Below are positions 8,301-26,380 of a stretch of 64,000 nt of DNA, piece by piece. The stretch lies in assembly GCF_009914755.1 (NCBI RefSeq), contig NC_060939.1, one strand, 5' to 3'. The first letter of the stretch is position 1. Each line of letters starts with the position of its first letter. Source of the DNA: the human T2T-CHM13v2.0 reference genome, Homo sapiens. Made by a program: the position numbers and the translations under genes. The notes beneath the pieces were generated by a model, which made no database searches, had not been told where the DNA came from, and was given only the letters and a program-made list of their open reading frames with translations.

Positions 8301-9334
8301 GAAACTGTATCTTTCTTATTACCAGAGAAGTTAAACATTTTTTCCTGTGTGTCAGCAGCATTTGTGTTTCTTTTTCTTTGAATTTTCATTTTTCCAGTTT
8401 GAACTTTCCATTTTTCTTAGAATTTTTGGTCTTTGTCTTCTCTACTTTTAGAATAGAATGAATATGATATTAATCATACTTCGAATTGTGGCCATGATGG
8501 AGTACCTGTATTGATGATGGTCTCCCAGCATAAACAACTACAAAGCTGGACAAAGTACATGAAGAAATTGTCTTCAGCCATTGGGCAATAGGCAGTTCCA
8601 GGTACAATCTGAGAGAAGGGAATCACATGAAGTTACTGCTACATTTTTCTGGTGGGGAAAGTTTCAAAACCCTCAATGACAGCACGAGGAAGCAGAGTCC
8701 AGGCAAAGGATCAGTCTTGTTTGGTGGAGGAAACGGAGACTGCTGCTCAGGGCTGCTAAAATGTGTGTGGCAGGGTATCAGAAAGGATGGAGTTGCAGAG
8801 AAGGAGCCCCAGAAATCTTATAGAGGTTGCTGCAGGTCCTTGGCCAAATCCCAAACTATGAATGTGTGGATTGAGACTCTGCAAGGCCTAGCACAGAACA
8901 GCCGATGGGGAGCTGAGAGCTAAACAGCGATTTCAGTGGTCACAGAGTGCTGGAAACACATCTGAATTCTGGCTCAGCCAGCATCTCCACTCTTGGAATC
9001 TCAGGACTTGATGAATATCCCAGACATTCACAGGAGGGCCTAGAAGGCCATGCCTTGGGATTAAGGAAGATTCTCTAGGAATAAGGTCAAAACTAAAAAC
9101 CAGCTCACGCTAACAAAACCTAAAATGTAGCCTTGACACACGTGATCAAGTTAACCCATCAGTAATTTAATTCCCTGCCAAAATAAAACTCAACACTGGA
9201 GTAGGATAACATAACCCACATCTCTACAATGAAGGTTCACAATGTCCAACAGCTCAAGAAATACTTAGAAGACATGAGAAAAAGTGAGAAAATATATCCT
9301 ACAATTAAGAGAAAACCAGTCAATACGAACTGAC

Positions 9335-10168
<834 letters not shown>

Positions 10169-10289
10169 GGCCCATAAATGGCTCACACATTGGAATTAGC
10201 AGGCAAGAGCTTTAAAGTAACTACATACATACATCAAAGATTTTAGAGAAATATCAACACCTGTGAAGATGGTGAAAAAAGAATTTAGA

Positions 10290-10412
10290 GAAATAATTTT
10301 TAGTATAAGTATGTCCTAAATATGCATGGTACATACTTACTAAAATATAGTTTATTTTTTAATCAGAAATCTAAATTTAACTGGGCATCCTATATTTTAT
10401 CTGGCATCTCTA
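10290..10412. mobile_element. MER53-like hAT MITE fragment
   Basis: tagtataagtatgtcc...catacttactaaaa...aaatttaactgggcatcctatattttatctggca. Confidence 0.6.
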
Positions 10413-10599
10413 CCCCAAAGCCAAGAAAGAGAGAATCCAGAGTCCTATCTTTTAGCAGGTGACCTAGCCTAGGACAGGGCCTGGCCAGGGGCAATTGTGC
10501 ATTGGATGGATTAGAGATGCCAGTCATTCAAAGGTTTGCCAGACCTGCATACAATCAACATTATTTTTATTTAATATTTTTGTCTAAAGCAACTTTAAA

Positions 10600-12450
<1,851 letters not shown>

Positions 12451-12499
12451 GTCAACTCATTTTTAAAACCTAAATAAATGTATTTAAAAAGGAAACTTT

Positions 12500-12760
12500 C
12501 GCTTTGGGAGGCCAAAGCGGGTGAATTGCTTGAGCCCAGGAGTTCAAGACCAGCCTGAGCAACATGGCGAAACTCTGTCTCTACAAAAATTACAAAAATA
12601 TCCAGGCATGGTGACGTGAGCCTATAGTTTCAGCTACTTGGGAAGTGAGGCAGGAGGATTGCTTGAGCCTGGGAGGTTGAGGCTGCCGTGAGCTGTGATC
12701 GCACCATTATACTCCAGCCTGGGAGACAGAGCAAAACCCTGCCTTAAATAAATAAATGAA
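12500..12760 (+). mobile_element. Alu (5' truncated)
   Basis: ctttgggaggccaaagcggg...cagcctgggagacagagc, then a taaa tail. Confidence 0.9.
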
Positions 12761-12779
12761 TAAAAGGAAATTTGTGATT

Positions 12780-12940
12780 AGTGGTTCTCAAAGTGTGGTC
12801 CCTGAGCCAGCAGCATCAGCATCCCCATCAGCTGAGAACTTGTTAGAAATGCAGATTCTCAGGCGCCACCCCAGACCTCCTGAATCAGAACCTCTGAGGC
12901 GTGGGTTCAGCGACCTGTGGTTTAACAAGCCCTCCCGGTG
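12780..12940. mobile_element. MER5A
   Basis: gtggttctcaaagtgtggtcc...cagcagcatcagcat...ttgttagaaatgcagattctcagg...tttaacaagccctcc. Confidence 0.8.
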
Positions 12941-14063
12941 AGAATCGGTCTCATTCACTACAGATAGAAGGAAATGGTAAAAATCAATTCATCCCCGTAT
13001 CGCCTAAAATCCTCCTGTGGGCCCCAGGTTGGCACAGCACACTTTTGGGCAGGAGCCCCACTCACAGAGGCTGTGACAAGAATGCTCCTGCCCCTGGGGT
13101 TGTGCAGTGACAGCTCACACAGCTCCACGTGGCGGTTCTGAGTTTGGGAAGCGCTGATGTAGTCCTACTACAGCCCTTCCTGCCCTTCACTGGACTGAGA
13201 AAATCCAGGCTCTGAGGAGGGAGAGACTTGCCCAAGGTCACCCAGCAACATGGTCAGTCTCCTTTCCCAGGGCCCTCACAATGCGTGGCCTGTTTAAAGC
13301 CTGCCTCTATTCACTGCTGAGTGAAAAATCCAGCTCCAAAACAGAATATGGGGAAGGATACTATCTTGTGCAGCTTATGTTTATAGCTGCAGATACGTGG
13401 GAAAAAAAGTCAGAAAATACTGTTGAAGCAGTTACTTAGGGAGAAAAGGTGTTTGCTGGTCTTTTGTGTTTTTAACTTTTCTATATTTCATAATTTTTAT
13501 CACAATAATGTTTAGTTACATAATCAAAATGTATTAAATGTTAAAAATTGACATGAAGCCTGATCCAGCCACGGCCTATTGTTGGCAGAGTCAGGAAGCC
13601 TTCCAGATAGAGCAGCCCCGCACCTGCCCCAGGTCACACCCTGGGCCTGGGCACATGCTAGGTCCTCTGTCTGGACACCCTCACCCTGTGGTGGCCTCCA
13701 CGTCCGTACCCACCAGCACCTCCTGTGGGCGAGGCCCTACATTACATCCAGCCCTGGGCACCCACTAGCCCAGAGGGCACCTCATGGTCTGAGAGCCCGC
13801 CTGTCTGTCTCTAAAGAGAGGAAAACTCCTTGGGACATGTGTTCCACTTGACCCATCACCCCTGGCCTGGTACAGAAAGGTAGACAGTGGGTATTTGGTG
13901 AATAAATGAATGGATGATTAGAATGAATTCCCAAAATGGCAATTTCCTGAGGCCCTTCTCCAGCTGGCCCAGGTGGAACCAGTTCCACTTTTCACAGGAA
14001 AGCCAGGTGGGAGGAGTGGGGCAGGTGTGTGTGAGGGGCCAGATTCTTGAGGGCTGCATGGAC

Positions 14064-16107
14064 ATGGGGCTTTGGCGGGTCTGGGGGCGGCAGTGCTTCT
14101 GTGGGAGCCTCAGGGAGGGCTCATCCTTGGAATCCACCAGGGTATCCTGGTACCCCCAGCTGCTGCGTGGCGTGAGAAGTCCTGGCTGGTGGGGACACAC
14201 AGGTACTTGTTTGGATTGGCCACCTGGTCCAGCCCAAGGAGCTGTGCCTCCAGCCCCTTGGGGAAAAACTCACTTCTGATGTGTGACAACAGCTGCAGGC
14301 AAGGGGAGGGAGAGGTGTGCTGGGCCTCGGCCTTAGAAGCCAGAAGCCCTACCTTGGTCTATATGGGAAAGGCATGCGGCCTCAGCTAGATCTAGGGTCC
14401 TGGGTTATGGTCAGAACCCTCCCTTATGGACTCAGTGACTTGGGCTGACCCCGCCCCTCCCTGAGCCTCATCAGTGAAACCAGGATGGGGCCAGGGCTCT
14501 CGACACCTCCCAGCTCAGACCTCTGACTTTCTCCCAGGAGGGCAGGAGATCAGACAGAGGTGACCCGGGCTCTCCTGTTTACCTCAACCTCCTTGTGAAG
14601 CCTCCCTCTTTCTGCCTGTGAGGTGGGTGGGGCCGGAAGGAGGGGCATTCACCTGTAGGCCTCTGACTTCTCTGCCCAGGTGTACCTGGAGAGCCTGGTC
14701 TATACCCGGTGCTCTGCTACACCCCATGGCCTGGCCATGACCTCCCTGCCTCCAGAGCAGCCCTGGCCCAGGGAAGAAGCTGTCTCTGCATCGAATGATA
14801 GGTGGAAAATGGAAGTGGGGATGATAGCTCTGAAAAGGAGTCAAGGAGGAGGTGCCTTCCCAAGGATGCTGAGGGTTTTTCCAGAATGGAACTTGACTGG
14901 TGCGGGCAAACATCAGGAGGTGGGAAGGGTGGCTCCCTCTGTGGGAGCCAGGGTGACTTGCCTGGATCGAACAGTGGTAGGCAGTGGGTAGGGCAGGCAG
15001 AGCTGGGGTGCCCAGAGCCTGGGGTCCCTGTCCTTGCAGAGGACTGGATTGCAAAACAAGTGTCCCCTGCCTTCTGGCTGGGGGACATCCTCTACTTCCA
15101 AGCCCAGACATACACCTGCTGCCACAAGCCCCTGAGGTTCTTCAGAGGACCAATGGGCAGCCACACCCATGCTGGGCCAGCCTGCTGGGCCCACCTGCAC
15201 CATGGTCAGAGCCCATGACTGAGGGGACTCTCTGGGGACAATGGGGGCAGTCTCATGCTGCCCTCTTACAGGTGGATCAGTCCCTGGGATCTGGTGTTGG
15301 GCCGGGGTAGGCTGAGTATGTTCTCTGATGGGGTGCCTTGTGGACAGCAGGTAGAGCAACTTCTTCTTGGCTTTCTTGGACCTCAGGACATAGCTGAACA
15401 CTGCGCTTTACCCTGGATGCCTTCAGATTCTCAGGGGACCCTGGGAAGGAAGAGGGGCTGCCCCTGCAAAGGGCCAGGGCCCTGGCCCATGGTTGCTTCC
15501 CCCAGCAGGTACCTCCTCTCCAGATTGACATCACCTGATTCCTGAAGGCCTGAGCTACAGACCAGAGCCCCAACACCCTCACCAAGGCCTGTTCTTAATC
15601 AGAGCAGCTAGTATATGATTCCGGAGCTGAAGTGGGCAGAGAGAGAATGCAGGGCTCTGTAAGACTTCTTGGCTCCCTGCTGCGGTGGGCCCTGTAGAAG
15701 GCCCCCCAGAAATCTGCAGCTGCTGTAAGTCACTGGGAGGAAGCTGCAGCAGACATGTGTTTCCCAGCCTGGTAGATGGAGAAGGGTTTCCGGGTCTCCG
15801 AGTGGGAGGCCCAAACGTGGCCTTGGTTGTAGCAGTGCAGGAATTCTAGCCAGCTCTGGGGCCCAGGGCAAGTCATTTAACCTCTCAGAACCCCACTCCT
15901 GGTCACCATGTGGCTCTTGTGTGGTTGTAAAGAACACCCCTGGCCACTTATGTCCCATCAGTGGAAGCCTAGCATGGGTGGAGACCCCCGAGACTGAACT
16001 CAGTGGCAGGATCCAGCCTTTCCAGCTCTCCTACATAGAGCCCAGAGCCAGCAGGGTGGGTTTCCTGAAGAAGCAGGCACTCCTGTGGGCTGGAGAGCAT
16101 GATTAAA
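14064..16107 (+). pseudogene. Unprocessed, heavily decayed zona pellucida ZP3 (ZPC)-family pseudogene
   Basis: Manual translation allowing frameshifts. Ex1 ~14064-14298: MGL..GLGAAVLLW; HRYLFG/GHLVQPKEL; LLMCDNS.Q. Ex2/3 14680-14801: VYLESLVY; YTPWPGHD; KKLSLHRMI. Ex4 15040-~15204: EDWIAKQVSPAFWLGDILYFQAQTYTCCHKPLRFF. Ex5 ~15331-15450: GCLVDSR*..AF..LRFTLDAFRFSGD. Ex6 15524-~15610: IDIT*FLKA*ATDQSPNTLTKACS*. Ex7 ~15686-15825: W.PVEGPPEICSCC; RPKR. Possible ex8 ~15960-16107 ending at ATTAAA. Motif order and several intron phases match ZP3. Confidence 0.9.
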
Positions 16108-21490: not shown

Positions 21491-22344
21491 CAATTTCTTC
21501 TTTGGTTATTAGTTTATTCTTTAATGTATTTTTGTTGTTGTTTTGTCTTTTTGTTTTTGCCTCTTCAAGTCAACGTCGGAAACTTAGTTGTTCTAGACTA
21601 CCCATTAGCTCAAAGCTACCAGTAATCAGACTACCACTGCAATCTAAGCAACCGATTTTTTTTTTACCCATCAGACTGGCAAAAATTAAGATAAGATCTA
21701 TTGATGTTGAAGCTGTGGGGAGTTTTCCTGAGCATGTTAATTATGACAGCCCTTTTTACTAGGCACCTAGACGATTCATCAAAATGAAATAAAATACCCA
21801 TGCACTTGAAGAAGTTACCTGGTTATTTCCTTATCTGGGTGCTGGTTATGTGAGGTCTACAGTTGATGAAAACTTATTAAGCTTTATATTTCTAATAGGT
21901 ACAATTTTCTGTATGTGTAATATATTTGAAAAGTTTTTAAAATGTTTTTTGCCACAGCCCGCAGCTGTGTATAATGCTATTCGCTTAACAGTGGAAAACA
22001 TGGCAATGACCTGAATCTCCCTGGCTCCCGGGATCCTACCCCCTTAAGTTAACGAAAATAAAAGTAAAAGAAATAACTTCCACTGTCTTTCGTAATGCCT
22101 TAAATCCGTCCTCAGTTAAACCGGCGGTTGGCGCTGGTTTTTTCCAGGGCAGGATTCTGGGAGACGGAGGAGCAGACGCCAGCATTTCGCCCCCGGCACC
22201 TCCAGCGGGCTGCGGTCCGCTCCCGGCCTCACTCGAGCAGGCCCCGCCCCGCCAGAGGCCGTTAGTCCAAGTCACGTGATCGTCGACTCAGCTGACCTGG
22301 CGGGACCGGAAAAAGAAATTCCCGGGCCCTGGCTTCCTCGCGCG

Positions 22345-25439
<3,095 letters not shown>

Positions 25440-26380
25440 GTAAGTATGAGGCCAGCCAGGGTCCGGGCTCATCCTAGAAGGTGCACGCAGCACACAAAGT
25501 GCGTGGAGAGTCCAGGGAGACAATTTAACCGCAGTCACATACCGAGCAGCCGCAGAGCCGGGACGTGGCCCTCGGTCTCCTGACCCCGCGCGCTCTGTGA
25601 TGTGTACGTACAGGATCAGACCTTGCCCTTTCCTCCTGGCTGACCCTTCCTTAGTCCCCCGTGCCCCATGTGTGAGCACCCAGCTCACTCTCATTCCTCC
25701 CTCTCCAAAGCGTGGTCCCTGGCAGCACGAGTGGCAGAAGGGACAGCAGAGACTGTGGACCCCTCAGCTGCACCTAAGACCTCTGTGTGGTCTAGCCGTG
25801 TGTGCTGGGGGAGGCTTTTGGCCACCATTTCCCCCTCTGTAAATGAGACCGATACCTGTGGCATGGAGGACAGGAGGCTGGTGTGAGTGCCAAGCACTTG
25901 GAGCAGGGCCCTGAGTGAGCATGGACATGGGAACAGGGGTGTTTCTCGACTTTGTGCACCTTGGGGATGGGAGTGGGGCTCCCTGCATGGGTTGACAAGG
26001 CATTGCTTTCCCCCACCCCACCTCTGTCCCAGCCCTGCAAGTCCAGTCCTTGGGGGTCTAGGAAGGAAGAAGCCCCTGGCTGTTTGGCCTCAGGCTGGTG
26101 CCTGGCCCTCTCTGGCTCTGAGTTCCTGGGAAAGTCAGCACCCAAGGCATGCCCTCAAGTTTAGCACCTTGACAAGAAGGGCGGGGACACTGGGATCAGG
26201 CCCAACTCTTTGGCCCCAAATCCCACGGCCCCAGCTGGAGGATGAGGAGACGCTGGGCTTGGATGGGGAAATCAGGGGTGTAAAGGGGCCTGCTCACCCC
26301 TCAGCTTGGCTCAAAGGCTCAAGGCGTCAAAGGCTCAGCCTGCCACTCAGGAAGGAGCCCTGGCCAAGCCAGACACTCAC

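What the first reader, a model, noticed from the sequence alone, without database searches (positions are those of the whole stretch)
15040..15740. The ZP3 relic looks closer to avian ZP3 than to human ZP3, suggesting an ancient paralog at its original locus
Seen: EDW...LGDIL, GCLVDSR*SN..AF, LRF.LD.FRF.GD and DQSP. Recalled: chicken ZP3 has EDW...LGDIL, GCLVDGRVDD..AF, LRFRIDVFRFAGD and DQGP, whereas human ZP3 has ENW...LGDAA, GCLVDGLTD, LQFTVDVFHFAND and EQDP. I also recall chicken ZP3 mapping to chromosome 10, which is largely syntenic with human chr15. Inference: this could be the positional ortholog of the bird/marsupial ZP3 lineage rather than a recent copy of the chr7 gene. If so, shared inactivating mutations would date its loss.
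Basis: inference. Interest (0 to 1): 0.82.

Follow-up and report, generated by a model that had tools for sequence, protein, structure and literature searches.

The report
Ancient ZP3 pseudogene copy on chr15
This stretch is a dead remnant of an old second copy of the egg-coat gene ZP3, and the window holds one of six duplicated copies of it rather than the original site.

Summary
Window 15039-15765 (+) holds colinear remnants of ZP3 exons 4-7, and there is a weak exon-1 trace at 14144-14215. ZP3 proteins match with tblastn E down to 3.5e-7.

It is not a recent copy of the chr7 gene. There is no DNA-level match outside an Alu. In codon alignment, third-position identity to human ZP3 is 59 of 131.

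The claim "closer to avian than to human ZP3" is not supported.
- A majority consensus of the six relic copies is 51% identical to human ZP3, 45% to reptile orthologues of chicken ZP3, and about 43% to chicken by hand count.
- ML trees place the relic beside eutherian ZP3 (95/93 and 97/90).
- AU tests reject no alternative placement (p 0.07-0.36).
- The "avian" motifs also occur in sharks and reptiles, so they are ancestral states.

The window copy is not at the original locus. It is one of six chr15 copies, and it carries the most stop codons (four). The likely original lies about 6.7 kb upstream of the real COMMD4. A published table places chicken ZP3 in the matching gene block on chromosome 10.

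No bird, marsupial or monotreme sequences could be fetched, so assignment to a named lost paralogue stays open.

The parts
14144..14215 (+). Weak remnant of the start of ZP3 exon 1 (first strand of the ZP-N domain, ending in ..LFG)
   Evidence: In the window copy tblastn gives only E 0.12-0.13 (33-39% over 23-24 aa). The same place in the COMMD4-proximal copy (chr15:73197648-73197716) matches turtle ZP3 at 58% over 24 aa, E 7.7e-5, and caecilian at E 9.5e-5. It is colinear and on the same strand as exons 4-7. Exons 2-3 were not found.
15039..15143 (+). ZP3 exon 4 equivalent, first part (EDW...LGDIL...PLRFF); start of the ZP-C domain
   Evidence: tblastn: dog ZP3 47% over 38 aa, E 3.5e-7. ZP3 profile E 2.3e-5. 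PDB best hit is chicken ZP3 3nk3, E 0.022.
15144..15147 (+). Frameshift: four bases where ZP3 proteins have one residue
   Evidence: Reading frame changes between LR(L/F)F and DQW. There are no length differences among the six copies here, so the lesion is shared by all six.
15148..15219 (+). ZP3 exon 4 equivalent, second part (DQWAATP...), with a conserved Cys replaced by Trp
   Evidence: Aligned with D.CVAT... of ZP3 proteins. C>W at a column invariant in 36 functional rows.
15331..15396 (+). ZP3 exon 5 equivalent, first part (GCLVDSR*SN..AF..), with two TAG stops
   Evidence: tblastn matches. TAG at 15352-54 is shared only with the 73.62-Mb copy; the others read TGG. TAG at 15391-93 is in the window copy alone; the others read CAG.
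15397..15397 (+). Frameshift (one extra base) inside exon 5
   Evidence: Frame changes between ..T*L and TLRF. It is present in all six copies.
15398..15448 (+). ZP3 exon 5 equivalent, second part (TLRFTLDAFRFSGD..)
   Evidence: tblastn and profile matches.
15524..15601 (+). ZP3 exon 6 equivalent (IDIT*FLKA*ATDQSPNTLTKACS*), with three stops
   Evidence: tblastn. TGA at 15536-38 replaces the Cys of ITCHLK in all six copies. TGA at 15551-53 is window-only (others TGG). A one-base deletion after 15597 gives a TAA in the window copy only.
15691..15765 (+). ZP3 exon 7 equivalent (PVEGPPEICSCC..GSC..)
   Evidence: tblastn: caecilian 71% over 14 aa, tuatara 64% over 14 aa, as part of summed matches. 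Profile E 0.014.
22392..25439 (+). Context: COMMD4-derived exons (annotated LOC112268145). They show the relic travelled with its COMMD4 flank in a segmental duplication.
   Evidence: Window 22300-25500 matches the true COMMD4 (chr15:73206107-73209467) at 89-91%, COMMD4P1 at 92% and the COMMD4P2 locus at 100%. Window 9000-14900 is colinear with the sequence upstream of COMMD4.

Best explanation
The stretch is a non-functional remnant (a unitary pseudogene) of a second, ancient ZP3-type egg-coat gene that the human lineage lost.

Shown:
- The remnant keeps pieces of exons 4-7 and a trace of exon 1, in gene order, with very short introns (about 75-110 bp).
- It carries two frameshifts and one stop that are common to all six human copies.
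- The window copy has further stops of its own: two found in no other copy and one shared with a single other copy.
- The block was duplicated together with its COMMD4 flank into the low-copy repeats of 15q24.

Inferred:
- The original copy is the one about 6.7 kb upstream of the true COMMD4, on the same strand.
- That neighbourhood is the counterpart of the chicken chromosome-10 block that holds ZP3. The chr15 site is therefore probably the ancestral ZP3 position, and the working chr7 ZP3 is a relocated duplicate made in the mammalian stem.
- This fits the published view that placentals lost two of three ZP3-1 paralogues (1a, 1b) and kept 1c. Which lost paralogue this is could not be tested.
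- It has no role in the egg coat now. It lies antisense in an intron of LINC02259.
For: ZP3 homology:
-.

Old divergence from chr7 ZP3:
- No blastn match except an Alu, while ZP3P1 matched ZP3 exons at 69-82% in the same run.
- Codon-aligned identity 240/393, third positions 59/131, with GC3 about 0.7 in both.

Placement:
- Relic + eutherian ZP3 supported at 95/93 (LG+C20, 42 rows x 177 columns) and 97/90 (LG+G4, consensus row only).
- Amniotes + relic are separated from the caecilian and cartilaginous fishes at 100/98.

The reptile rows are orthologues of chicken ZP3:
- Turtle against 3nk3 scores 531 bits, gapless over 289 aa.

Six copies and shared lesions:
-.

Duplicon nature and true COMMD4 neighbour:
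-.

Chicken synteny:
- Table 7 of PMC10976558 lists ZP3, ZP3L1, NEIL1, COMMD4, MAN2C1, SIN3A, PTPN9, PML, ISLR2 and others in one 1-Mb window of chromosome 10 (passages read).

Published loss of ZP3-1a/1b in placentals:
- PMC8005149, section 2.2 read.

No annotation:
- RefSeq has no pseudogene or repeat annotation at any of the six copies.
Against: - AU tests reject none of the alternatives: relic+sauropsids p 0.196; relic outside amniote ZP3 p 0.136 and relic+primates p 0.358; relic outside tetrapod ZP3 p 0.066.
- The relic branch is very long (1.3-1.6 changes per column), and eutherian ZP3 is also a long branch, so attraction between them is possible.
- No bird, marsupial, monotreme, ZP3.2 or ZP3.3 sequence was in the tree. 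The last protein search listed only the best 120 of 415 hits, mostly sharks.
- Synteny rests on one gene list at 1-Mb resolution. The same chicken window also holds ZP3L1.
- Pfam does not recognise the pieces.
- Exons 2, 3 and 8 were not found.
Confidence: 0.65

Rival explanations
1. The relic descends from a different, older ZP3 subfamily (ZP3.2 or ZP3.3 of Feng et al.). One example would be the counterpart of chicken ZP3L1, rather than the ZP3.1 lineage that includes chicken ZP3 and human ZP3.
For: - AU tests do not reject a position outside amniote ZP3 (p 0.136) or outside tetrapod ZP3 (p 0.066).
- Chicken ZP3L1 lies in the same 1-Mb window as ZP3 and COMMD4.
- Feng et al. report ZP3.2 pseudogenes in panda, cat and opossum (PMC6262864, passages read).
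Against: - The ML trees place the relic inside the amniote group (100/98).
- Holding it outside tetrapods costs 12.1 log-likelihood units.
- Although decayed, the relic consensus is 45-51% identical to amniote ZP3. Intact shark ZP3 is only 42-45% identical to eutherian ZP3 over the same columns.
- Feng et al. do not name human among the species with a ZP3.2 pseudogene in the text read. Their Table S3 could not be seen.
Confidence: 0.2
2. The relic is the direct orthologue of sauropsid (bird-type) ZP3, and eutherian chr7 ZP3 belongs to a separate lineage that split off before the bird-mammal divergence.
For: - Position next to COMMD4, as for chicken ZP3.
- Relic+sauropsid grouping is not rejected (p 0.196).
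- Some chicken-like motifs are present.
Against: - The ML trees prefer relic+eutherian (95/93 and 97/90).
- Identity is higher to human (51%) than to reptiles (45%) or chicken (about 43% by hand).
- The chicken-like motifs are shared with sharks, so they do not mark a bird-relic group.
- No column was found where the relic shares a state derived in sauropsids. There was only 1 such polarised column, and 0 shared.
Confidence: 0.1
3. The relic is a DNA copy of the chr7-type ZP3 gene made within placentals or primates, which then decayed.
For: - Highest protein identity is to primate ZP3 (50-51%).
- Relic+primates is not rejected by the protein AU test (p 0.358).
Against: - No nucleotide match to the chr7 gene outside an Alu, although ZP3P1 was found at 69-82% in the same search.
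- Third-codon identity is 45%. I take this to mean roughly one change per site, which is far too much for a copy made within placentals (my estimate, with assumed rates).
- Introns are 75-110 bp, against 390 bp, 6 kb and 133 bp in the chr7 gene.
- The neighbourhood matches the chicken ZP3 block.
Confidence: 0.04

Closest known systems
Human ZP3 (chr7q11.23), the working egg-coat gene
   Same: Same family and the same exon order for the ZP-C domain. The relic consensus shares 72 of 142 aligned residues with it. Several of the conserved cysteines are kept (GCLVD, KACS, CxCC, GxC).
   Different: No DNA-level similarity, and third-codon identity of 45%. Different chromosome and much shorter introns. 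The relic has frameshifts and stops and has lost exons 2, 3 and 8.
ZP3P1 (chr5), ZP3P2 (chr7) and POMZP3: annotated young derivatives of chr7 ZP3
   Same: They are non-functional or chimeric pieces of a ZP3 gene in the human genome.
   Different: ZP3P1 matches ZP3 exons at 69-82% nucleotide identity and lacks introns. The chr15 relic keeps intron positions and is far more diverged. RefSeq does not annotate it.
ZPAXP (chr2), human unitary pseudogene of the lost egg-coat gene ZPAX
   Same: Same kind of object: a remnant of an egg-coat ZP gene that other vertebrates keep and the human lineage lost. It is listed in RefSeq and cited as known in PMC8005149 and PMC3434135 (passages read).
   Different: ZPAXP is annotated and published. 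The chr15 ZP3 relic is neither annotated nor mentioned in the text I could read, and it has been multiplied to six copies.
ZP3-1a / ZP3-1b of marsupials and monotremes (Moros-Nicolas et al.)
   Same: These are the ZP3 paralogues said to have been lost in placentals (PMC8005149, section 2.2 read). The relic is a candidate remnant of one of them.
   Different: No sequence of either could be fetched, so membership is untested. The original paper (10.1071/RD16519) is not held.
Chicken ZP3 (PDB 3nk3), on chromosome 10 near COMMD4/NEIL1
   Same: Matching gene neighbourhood. Several motifs are shared: LGDIL, LRF..D.FRF.GD, DQ.P.
   Different: Only about 43% identical by hand count, less than the relic's identity to human ZP3. 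The shared motifs are ancestral (also in sharks). The tree does not group the relic with reptile orthologues of chicken ZP3.

Membership tests
ZP3 (ZPC) egg-coat glycoprotein family, ZP-C domain | Significant sequence similarity to ZP3 proteins over the ZP-C domain | tested here: met
   tblastn E 3.5e-7 (dog) and 3e-7 to 6e-5 (reptiles, caecilian) against the 64-kb window. ZP3 profile E 2.3e-5 among 1512 pieces.
ZP3 (ZPC) egg-coat glycoprotein family, ZP-C domain | Match to the curated Pfam model PF00100 (Zona_pellucida) above its cut-off | tested here: not met
   0 families for three pieces at E up to 10. None of the 31 genome-wide PF00100 matches lies on chr15. The pieces are short (46-138 aa) and decayed.
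ZP3 (ZPC) egg-coat glycoprotein family, ZP-C domain | Colinear exons in ZP3 order on one strand | tested here: met
   Profile positions 203-239, 262-286, 287-301, 311-329 and 327-354 follow each other along the + strand. A trace of exon 1 lies upstream.
ZP3 (ZPC) egg-coat glycoprotein family, ZP-C domain | Conserved cysteines of the ZP-C domain | tested here: inconclusive
   Kept: GCLVD, KACS, CSCC, GSC. Lost: C>W in D.CVAT and C>stop in ITCHLK. Overall 5 of 29 invariant columns are changed. This is as expected for a pseudogene.
Functional gene | Open reading frame across the exons | tested here: not met
   Two frameshifts and one stop in all six copies. The window copy has four in-frame stops: two in no other copy, one shared with a single other copy, and the one in all six.
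ZP3.1 subfamily (Feng et al. 2018), as against ZP3.2 / ZP3.3 | Falls inside the clade of characterised vertebrate ZP3 genes | tested here: inconclusive
   ML places it inside amniote ZP3 (100/98). A position outside tetrapod ZP3 is 12.1 lnL worse, but p-AU is 0.066. No ZP3.2 or ZP3.3 rows were available.
ZP3-1a or ZP3-1b (paralogues lost in placentals) | Groups with marsupial/monotreme ZP3-1a or -1b and shares their gene neighbourhood | not testable with these tools
   No marsupial or monotreme protein or genome could be reached.
Positional orthologue of chicken ZP3 | Same flanking genes in chicken and at the human ancestral copy | tested here: inconclusive
   The human copy lies 6.7 kb upstream of COMMD4-NEIL1-MAN2C1. 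Chicken ZP3 and ZP3L1 are listed with the same genes in one 1-Mb window. Gene order and the immediate neighbour in chicken were not seen.
Segmental duplication (15q24 low-copy repeats) | Several long, highly similar copies on the same chromosome arm with shared flanks | tested here: met
   Six copies at 89-91% over 0.9 kb. K2P is 0.058-0.093 over 3.9 kb, with one pair at 0.0034. Flanks are colinear over more than 8 kb, and COMMD4-derived exons lie downstream.

The most novel reading that the evidence does not exclude
The human fertilisation gene ZP3 on chr7 is the relocated daughter, and the chr15 relic beside COMMD4 is the decayed parent at the ancestral amniote ZP3 locus.

The parent may also have stayed under constraint well into placental history. 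Before the duplications began, the relic had changed at only 5 of 29 invariant columns and carried one stop and two frameshifts in about 142 codons. With assumed mammalian rates, I read this as roughly 0.05-0.1 neutral changes per site. That would put the loss near the placental radiation rather than in the eutherian stem. If so, some placental lineages may have lost the gene independently, or may still keep it.
Probability: 0.2. Interest if true: 0.65.

Novelty: new member of a known kind. Interest (0 to 1): 0.4.

Why it matters
Egg-coat genes are a textbook case of stepwise gene loss in mammals. The literature I could read says placentals lost two ZP3 paralogues, but it shows no human remnant of them.

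A dated remnant beside COMMD4 would give that loss a physical locus. Its lesions could be compared across mammals to time the loss. It would also suggest that the essential human ZP3 gene sits at a secondary position.

On the practical side, the relic is an unannotated, non-repeat marker present in six of the 15q24 low-copy repeats. These repeats mediate the 15q24 microdeletion syndrome (abstracts of PMC3261729 and PMC7336734, seen in the listing). The copy-specific lesions help tell the repeats apart.

Tried and rejected
- Chance similarity was rejected, given the E-values and colinearity.
- A recent copy of chr7 ZP3 was rejected on DNA evidence, although the protein AU test alone could not reject it.
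- A second relic downstream was not supported. Weak tblastn hits near chr15:73200742 (E 0.3-0.9) gave profile E 32.
- An exon-2-like bit at window 13630-13716 (E 0.14-0.35) lies upstream of the exon-1 trace, so it is out of order. I left it as unexplained.
- Pfam scans of the pieces gave nothing.
- The literature gave no paper with ZP3 + pseudogene + 15q24 (0 papers). ZP3 + COMMD4 gave 2 papers, neither about a pseudogene. The lists of known ZP pseudogenes in PMC3434135 and PMC8005149 (passages read) do not include it.
- Supplements were closed and may bear on this: Feng et al. Table S3 and Fig. S7, and Moros-Nicolas et al. Fig. S1. They could list a human ZP3-type pseudogene.
- Goudet 2008, Moros-Nicolas 2018 and Frankenberg & Renfree 2018 are not held.
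- Dating from the protein branch length was abandoned, because a pseudogene breaks the model.
Full report
**What is there.** Real ZP3 proteins matched the window in gene order and on one strand: exon 4 equivalent at 15030-15143, exon 5 at 15316-15439, exon 6 at 15521-15604, exon 7 at 15691-15765. These proteins came from the protein word search. Dog ZP3 scored E 3.5e-7, and tuatara, turtles, lizards and a caecilian scored 3e-7 to 6e-5.

I built a ZP3 profile from 38 full-length or near full-length rows. Against 1512 six-frame pieces of the window and of the COMMD4 locus, it ranked the relic pieces first. The general Pfam model does not see them. The introns between the pieces are only about 75-110 bp.

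Upstream there is a trace of the start of exon 1. It is weak in the window (14144-14215, E about 0.1) and clearer in the COMMD4-proximal copy (58% over 24 aa, E 7.7e-5). Exons 2, 3 and 8 were not found.

**Six copies, and which is the original.** The 0.9-kb stretch occurs six times on chr15, at 70.45 (the window), 71.97, 73.20, 73.62, 75.81 and 76.61 Mb, with 89-91% identity to the window copy.
- Over 3.9 kb the pairwise K2P distances are 0.058-0.093. The exception is the 75.81/76.61 pair at 0.0034.
- With an assumed primate rate of about 1.2e-9 per site per year (my knowledge), the main spread dates to roughly 25-40 million years ago.
- The window's flanks are colinear with the sequence upstream of COMMD4.
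- The annotated LOC112268145 just downstream is COMMD4-derived: 89-91% to the true gene and 100% to the COMMD4P2 locus.
- Only the 73.20-Mb copy sits next to the intact COMMD4-NEIL1-MAN2C1-SIN3A row, 6.7 kb upstream of COMMD4 on the same strand.

I therefore take the 73.20-Mb copy as the original and the window copy as a secondary duplicon copy.

**Lesions.** All six copies share four lesions:
- a frameshift at 15144-15147;
- a frameshift at 15397;
- a TGA in place of the cysteine of ITCHLK (15536-38);
- a Cys-to-Trp change in D.CVAT.

These lesions predate the duplications. The window copy adds a TAG at 15391 and a TGA at 15551. It also has a one-base deletion that makes a TAA near 15597, and it shares a TAG at 15352 with one other copy. 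Where ZP3 proteins allow the direction of change to be read, the window copy is the changed one (LRLF to LRFF, ..S.AF to ..F.AF, ..PR. to ..LR.). It carries the most stop codons (four) of the six copies.

**Old or young.**
- The same blastn run that found the processed pseudogene ZP3P1 on ZP3 exons at 69-82% found nothing between the relic and the 25-kb chr7 gene, apart from an Alu.
- In codon alignment with the chr7 coding sequence, the relic consensus is 240/393 identical. Third positions are 59/131, with GC3 near 0.7 on both sides.
- That is close to saturation. My rough Jukes-Cantor estimate is about one change per site. With assumed rates, this means a split of the order of 200-300 million years.

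A copy made within placentals is excluded on this ground, although the protein AU test alone could not exclude it (p 0.358).

**Closer to bird or to human?** The reptile rows are good stand-ins for chicken ZP3: a tortoise protein aligns to chicken 3nk3 without gaps over 289 residues at 531 bits.

Identity of the relic consensus over the relic's columns (except chicken):

| Compared with | Identity |
|---|---|
| Human ZP3 | 72/142 (51%) |
| Sifaka (a lemur) | 50% |
| Dog | 45% |
| Tortoise, tuatara, two lizards | 45% |
| Caecilian | 43% |
| Chicken (hand count) | about 60/138 (43%) |
| Chimaera and shark | 36% |

Sharks read GDW..LGDLIH, GCLLDS, LRFDLDAFRFYGDE and DQG. The "avian" motifs are therefore old states that eutherian ZP3 changed.

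ML trees put the relic as sister to eutherian ZP3:
- 95/93 under LG+C20, with 42 rows x 177 columns;
- 97/90 under LG+G4, with the consensus row alone.

The evidence is thin, however. The relic branch is 1.3-1.6 changes per column, and AU tests reject nothing:
- relic with sauropsids, p 0.196;
- relic outside amniote ZP3, p 0.136;
- relic outside tetrapod ZP3, p 0.066.

In the count of polarised columns, the relic shared 2 of 9 eutherian-derived states. It did not share the state of the single sauropsid-derived column.

**Synteny.** Table 7 of PMC10976558 lists genes of one 1-Mb window of chicken chromosome 10 (build 6; passages read). The list holds ZP3, ZP3L1, NEIL1, COMMD4, MAN2C1, SIN3A, PTPN9, PML, ISLR, ISLR2, CSPG4, SNUPN, UBE2Q2 and others. 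This is the gene content of human 15q24. I could not see gene order or the immediate neighbour, and ZP3L1 is a second candidate counterpart.

**What is known.**
- PMC8005149 (section 2.2 read) states that the mammalian ancestor had ZP3-1a, ZP3-1b and ZP3-2. A therian duplication gave ZP3-1c, which is the eutherian ZP3, and placentals lost two of the three ZP3-1 genes.
- PMC6262864 (passages read) reports ZP3.2 pseudogenes in panda, cat and opossum.
- Neither text, nor the list of ZP pseudogenes in PMC3434135, mentions a human chr15 remnant.
- RefSeq annotates none of the six copies.
- My searches found no paper on it.
- Supplements and three key subscription papers could not be seen.

**Reading.** The best fit is a unitary pseudogene of a lost ZP3.1-type paralogue. 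It sat at the ancestral ZP3 position beside COMMD4 and was later carried into the 15q24 repeats. The chr7 gene would then be the relocated duplicate. The relic and eutherian ZP3 would have parted in the mammalian stem, which agrees with both the tree and the published therian duplication.

The relic shows few lesions before the duplications: 5 of 29 invariant columns changed, one stop and two frameshifts in about 142 codons. This hints at a loss nearer the placental radiation than the eutherian stem. It is an inference from small counts and assumed rates.

**Verdict.**
- It is a new, unannotated member of a known kind. Interest is moderate.

Noticed in passing
window 22300-25500 (LOC112268145) vs chr15:71962967-71966168: The COMMD4-derived exons annotated here as a protein-coding gene are 100% identical over 3201 bases to a locus annotated as the transcribed pseudogene COMMD4P2. 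The ZP3 relic 7 kb upstream differs about 9% from that same copy, and the 3.9-kb block differs 5.8%. The block is a mosaic, which suggests a recent duplication or gene conversion with a breakpoint between 15800 and 22300. The two annotations are inconsistent.
   Followed up: partly
window 13940-14532; chr15:73622106-73622667; chr15:75813872-75814372: RefSeq 'hESC enhancer' elements (H3K27ac/H3K4me1) overlap the relic or its exon-1 trace in three of the six copies.
   Followed up: no
L002 (chr15:75.81 Mb, -) and L003 (chr15:76.61 Mb, +): These two copies differ by only K2P 0.0034 over 3.9 kb and are inverted relative to each other. They also share a 6-base deletion in exon 5. This is a young inverted pair about 0.8 Mb apart.
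   Followed up: partly
window 13630-13716 (+): A weak exon-2-like stretch (QVTPWAWAHARSSVW..; E 0.14-0.35 against human, dog and tuatara ZP3) lies upstream of the exon-1 trace, so it is out of gene order. It may be chance, or a trace of a second tandem gene.
   Followed up: partly
protein P0023: A 461-aa record named 'zona pellucida domain-containing protein, partial [Salmonella enterica ...]' on a 1415-base contig is 80% identical to a shark ZP3. This is most likely a contaminated public record.
   Followed up: no
listing: About 100 of the 120 listed hits are shark, ray or chimaera ZP3-like proteins. Many come from one species and often from one contig, which points to large ZP3 expansions in cartilaginous fishes.
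   Followed up: no
L037:7257-7949 (chr7 ZP3 exon 1): The frame of ZP3 exon 1 stays open for 231 codons, running 28 codons upstream of the ATG and 99 codons into intron 1.
   Followed up: no
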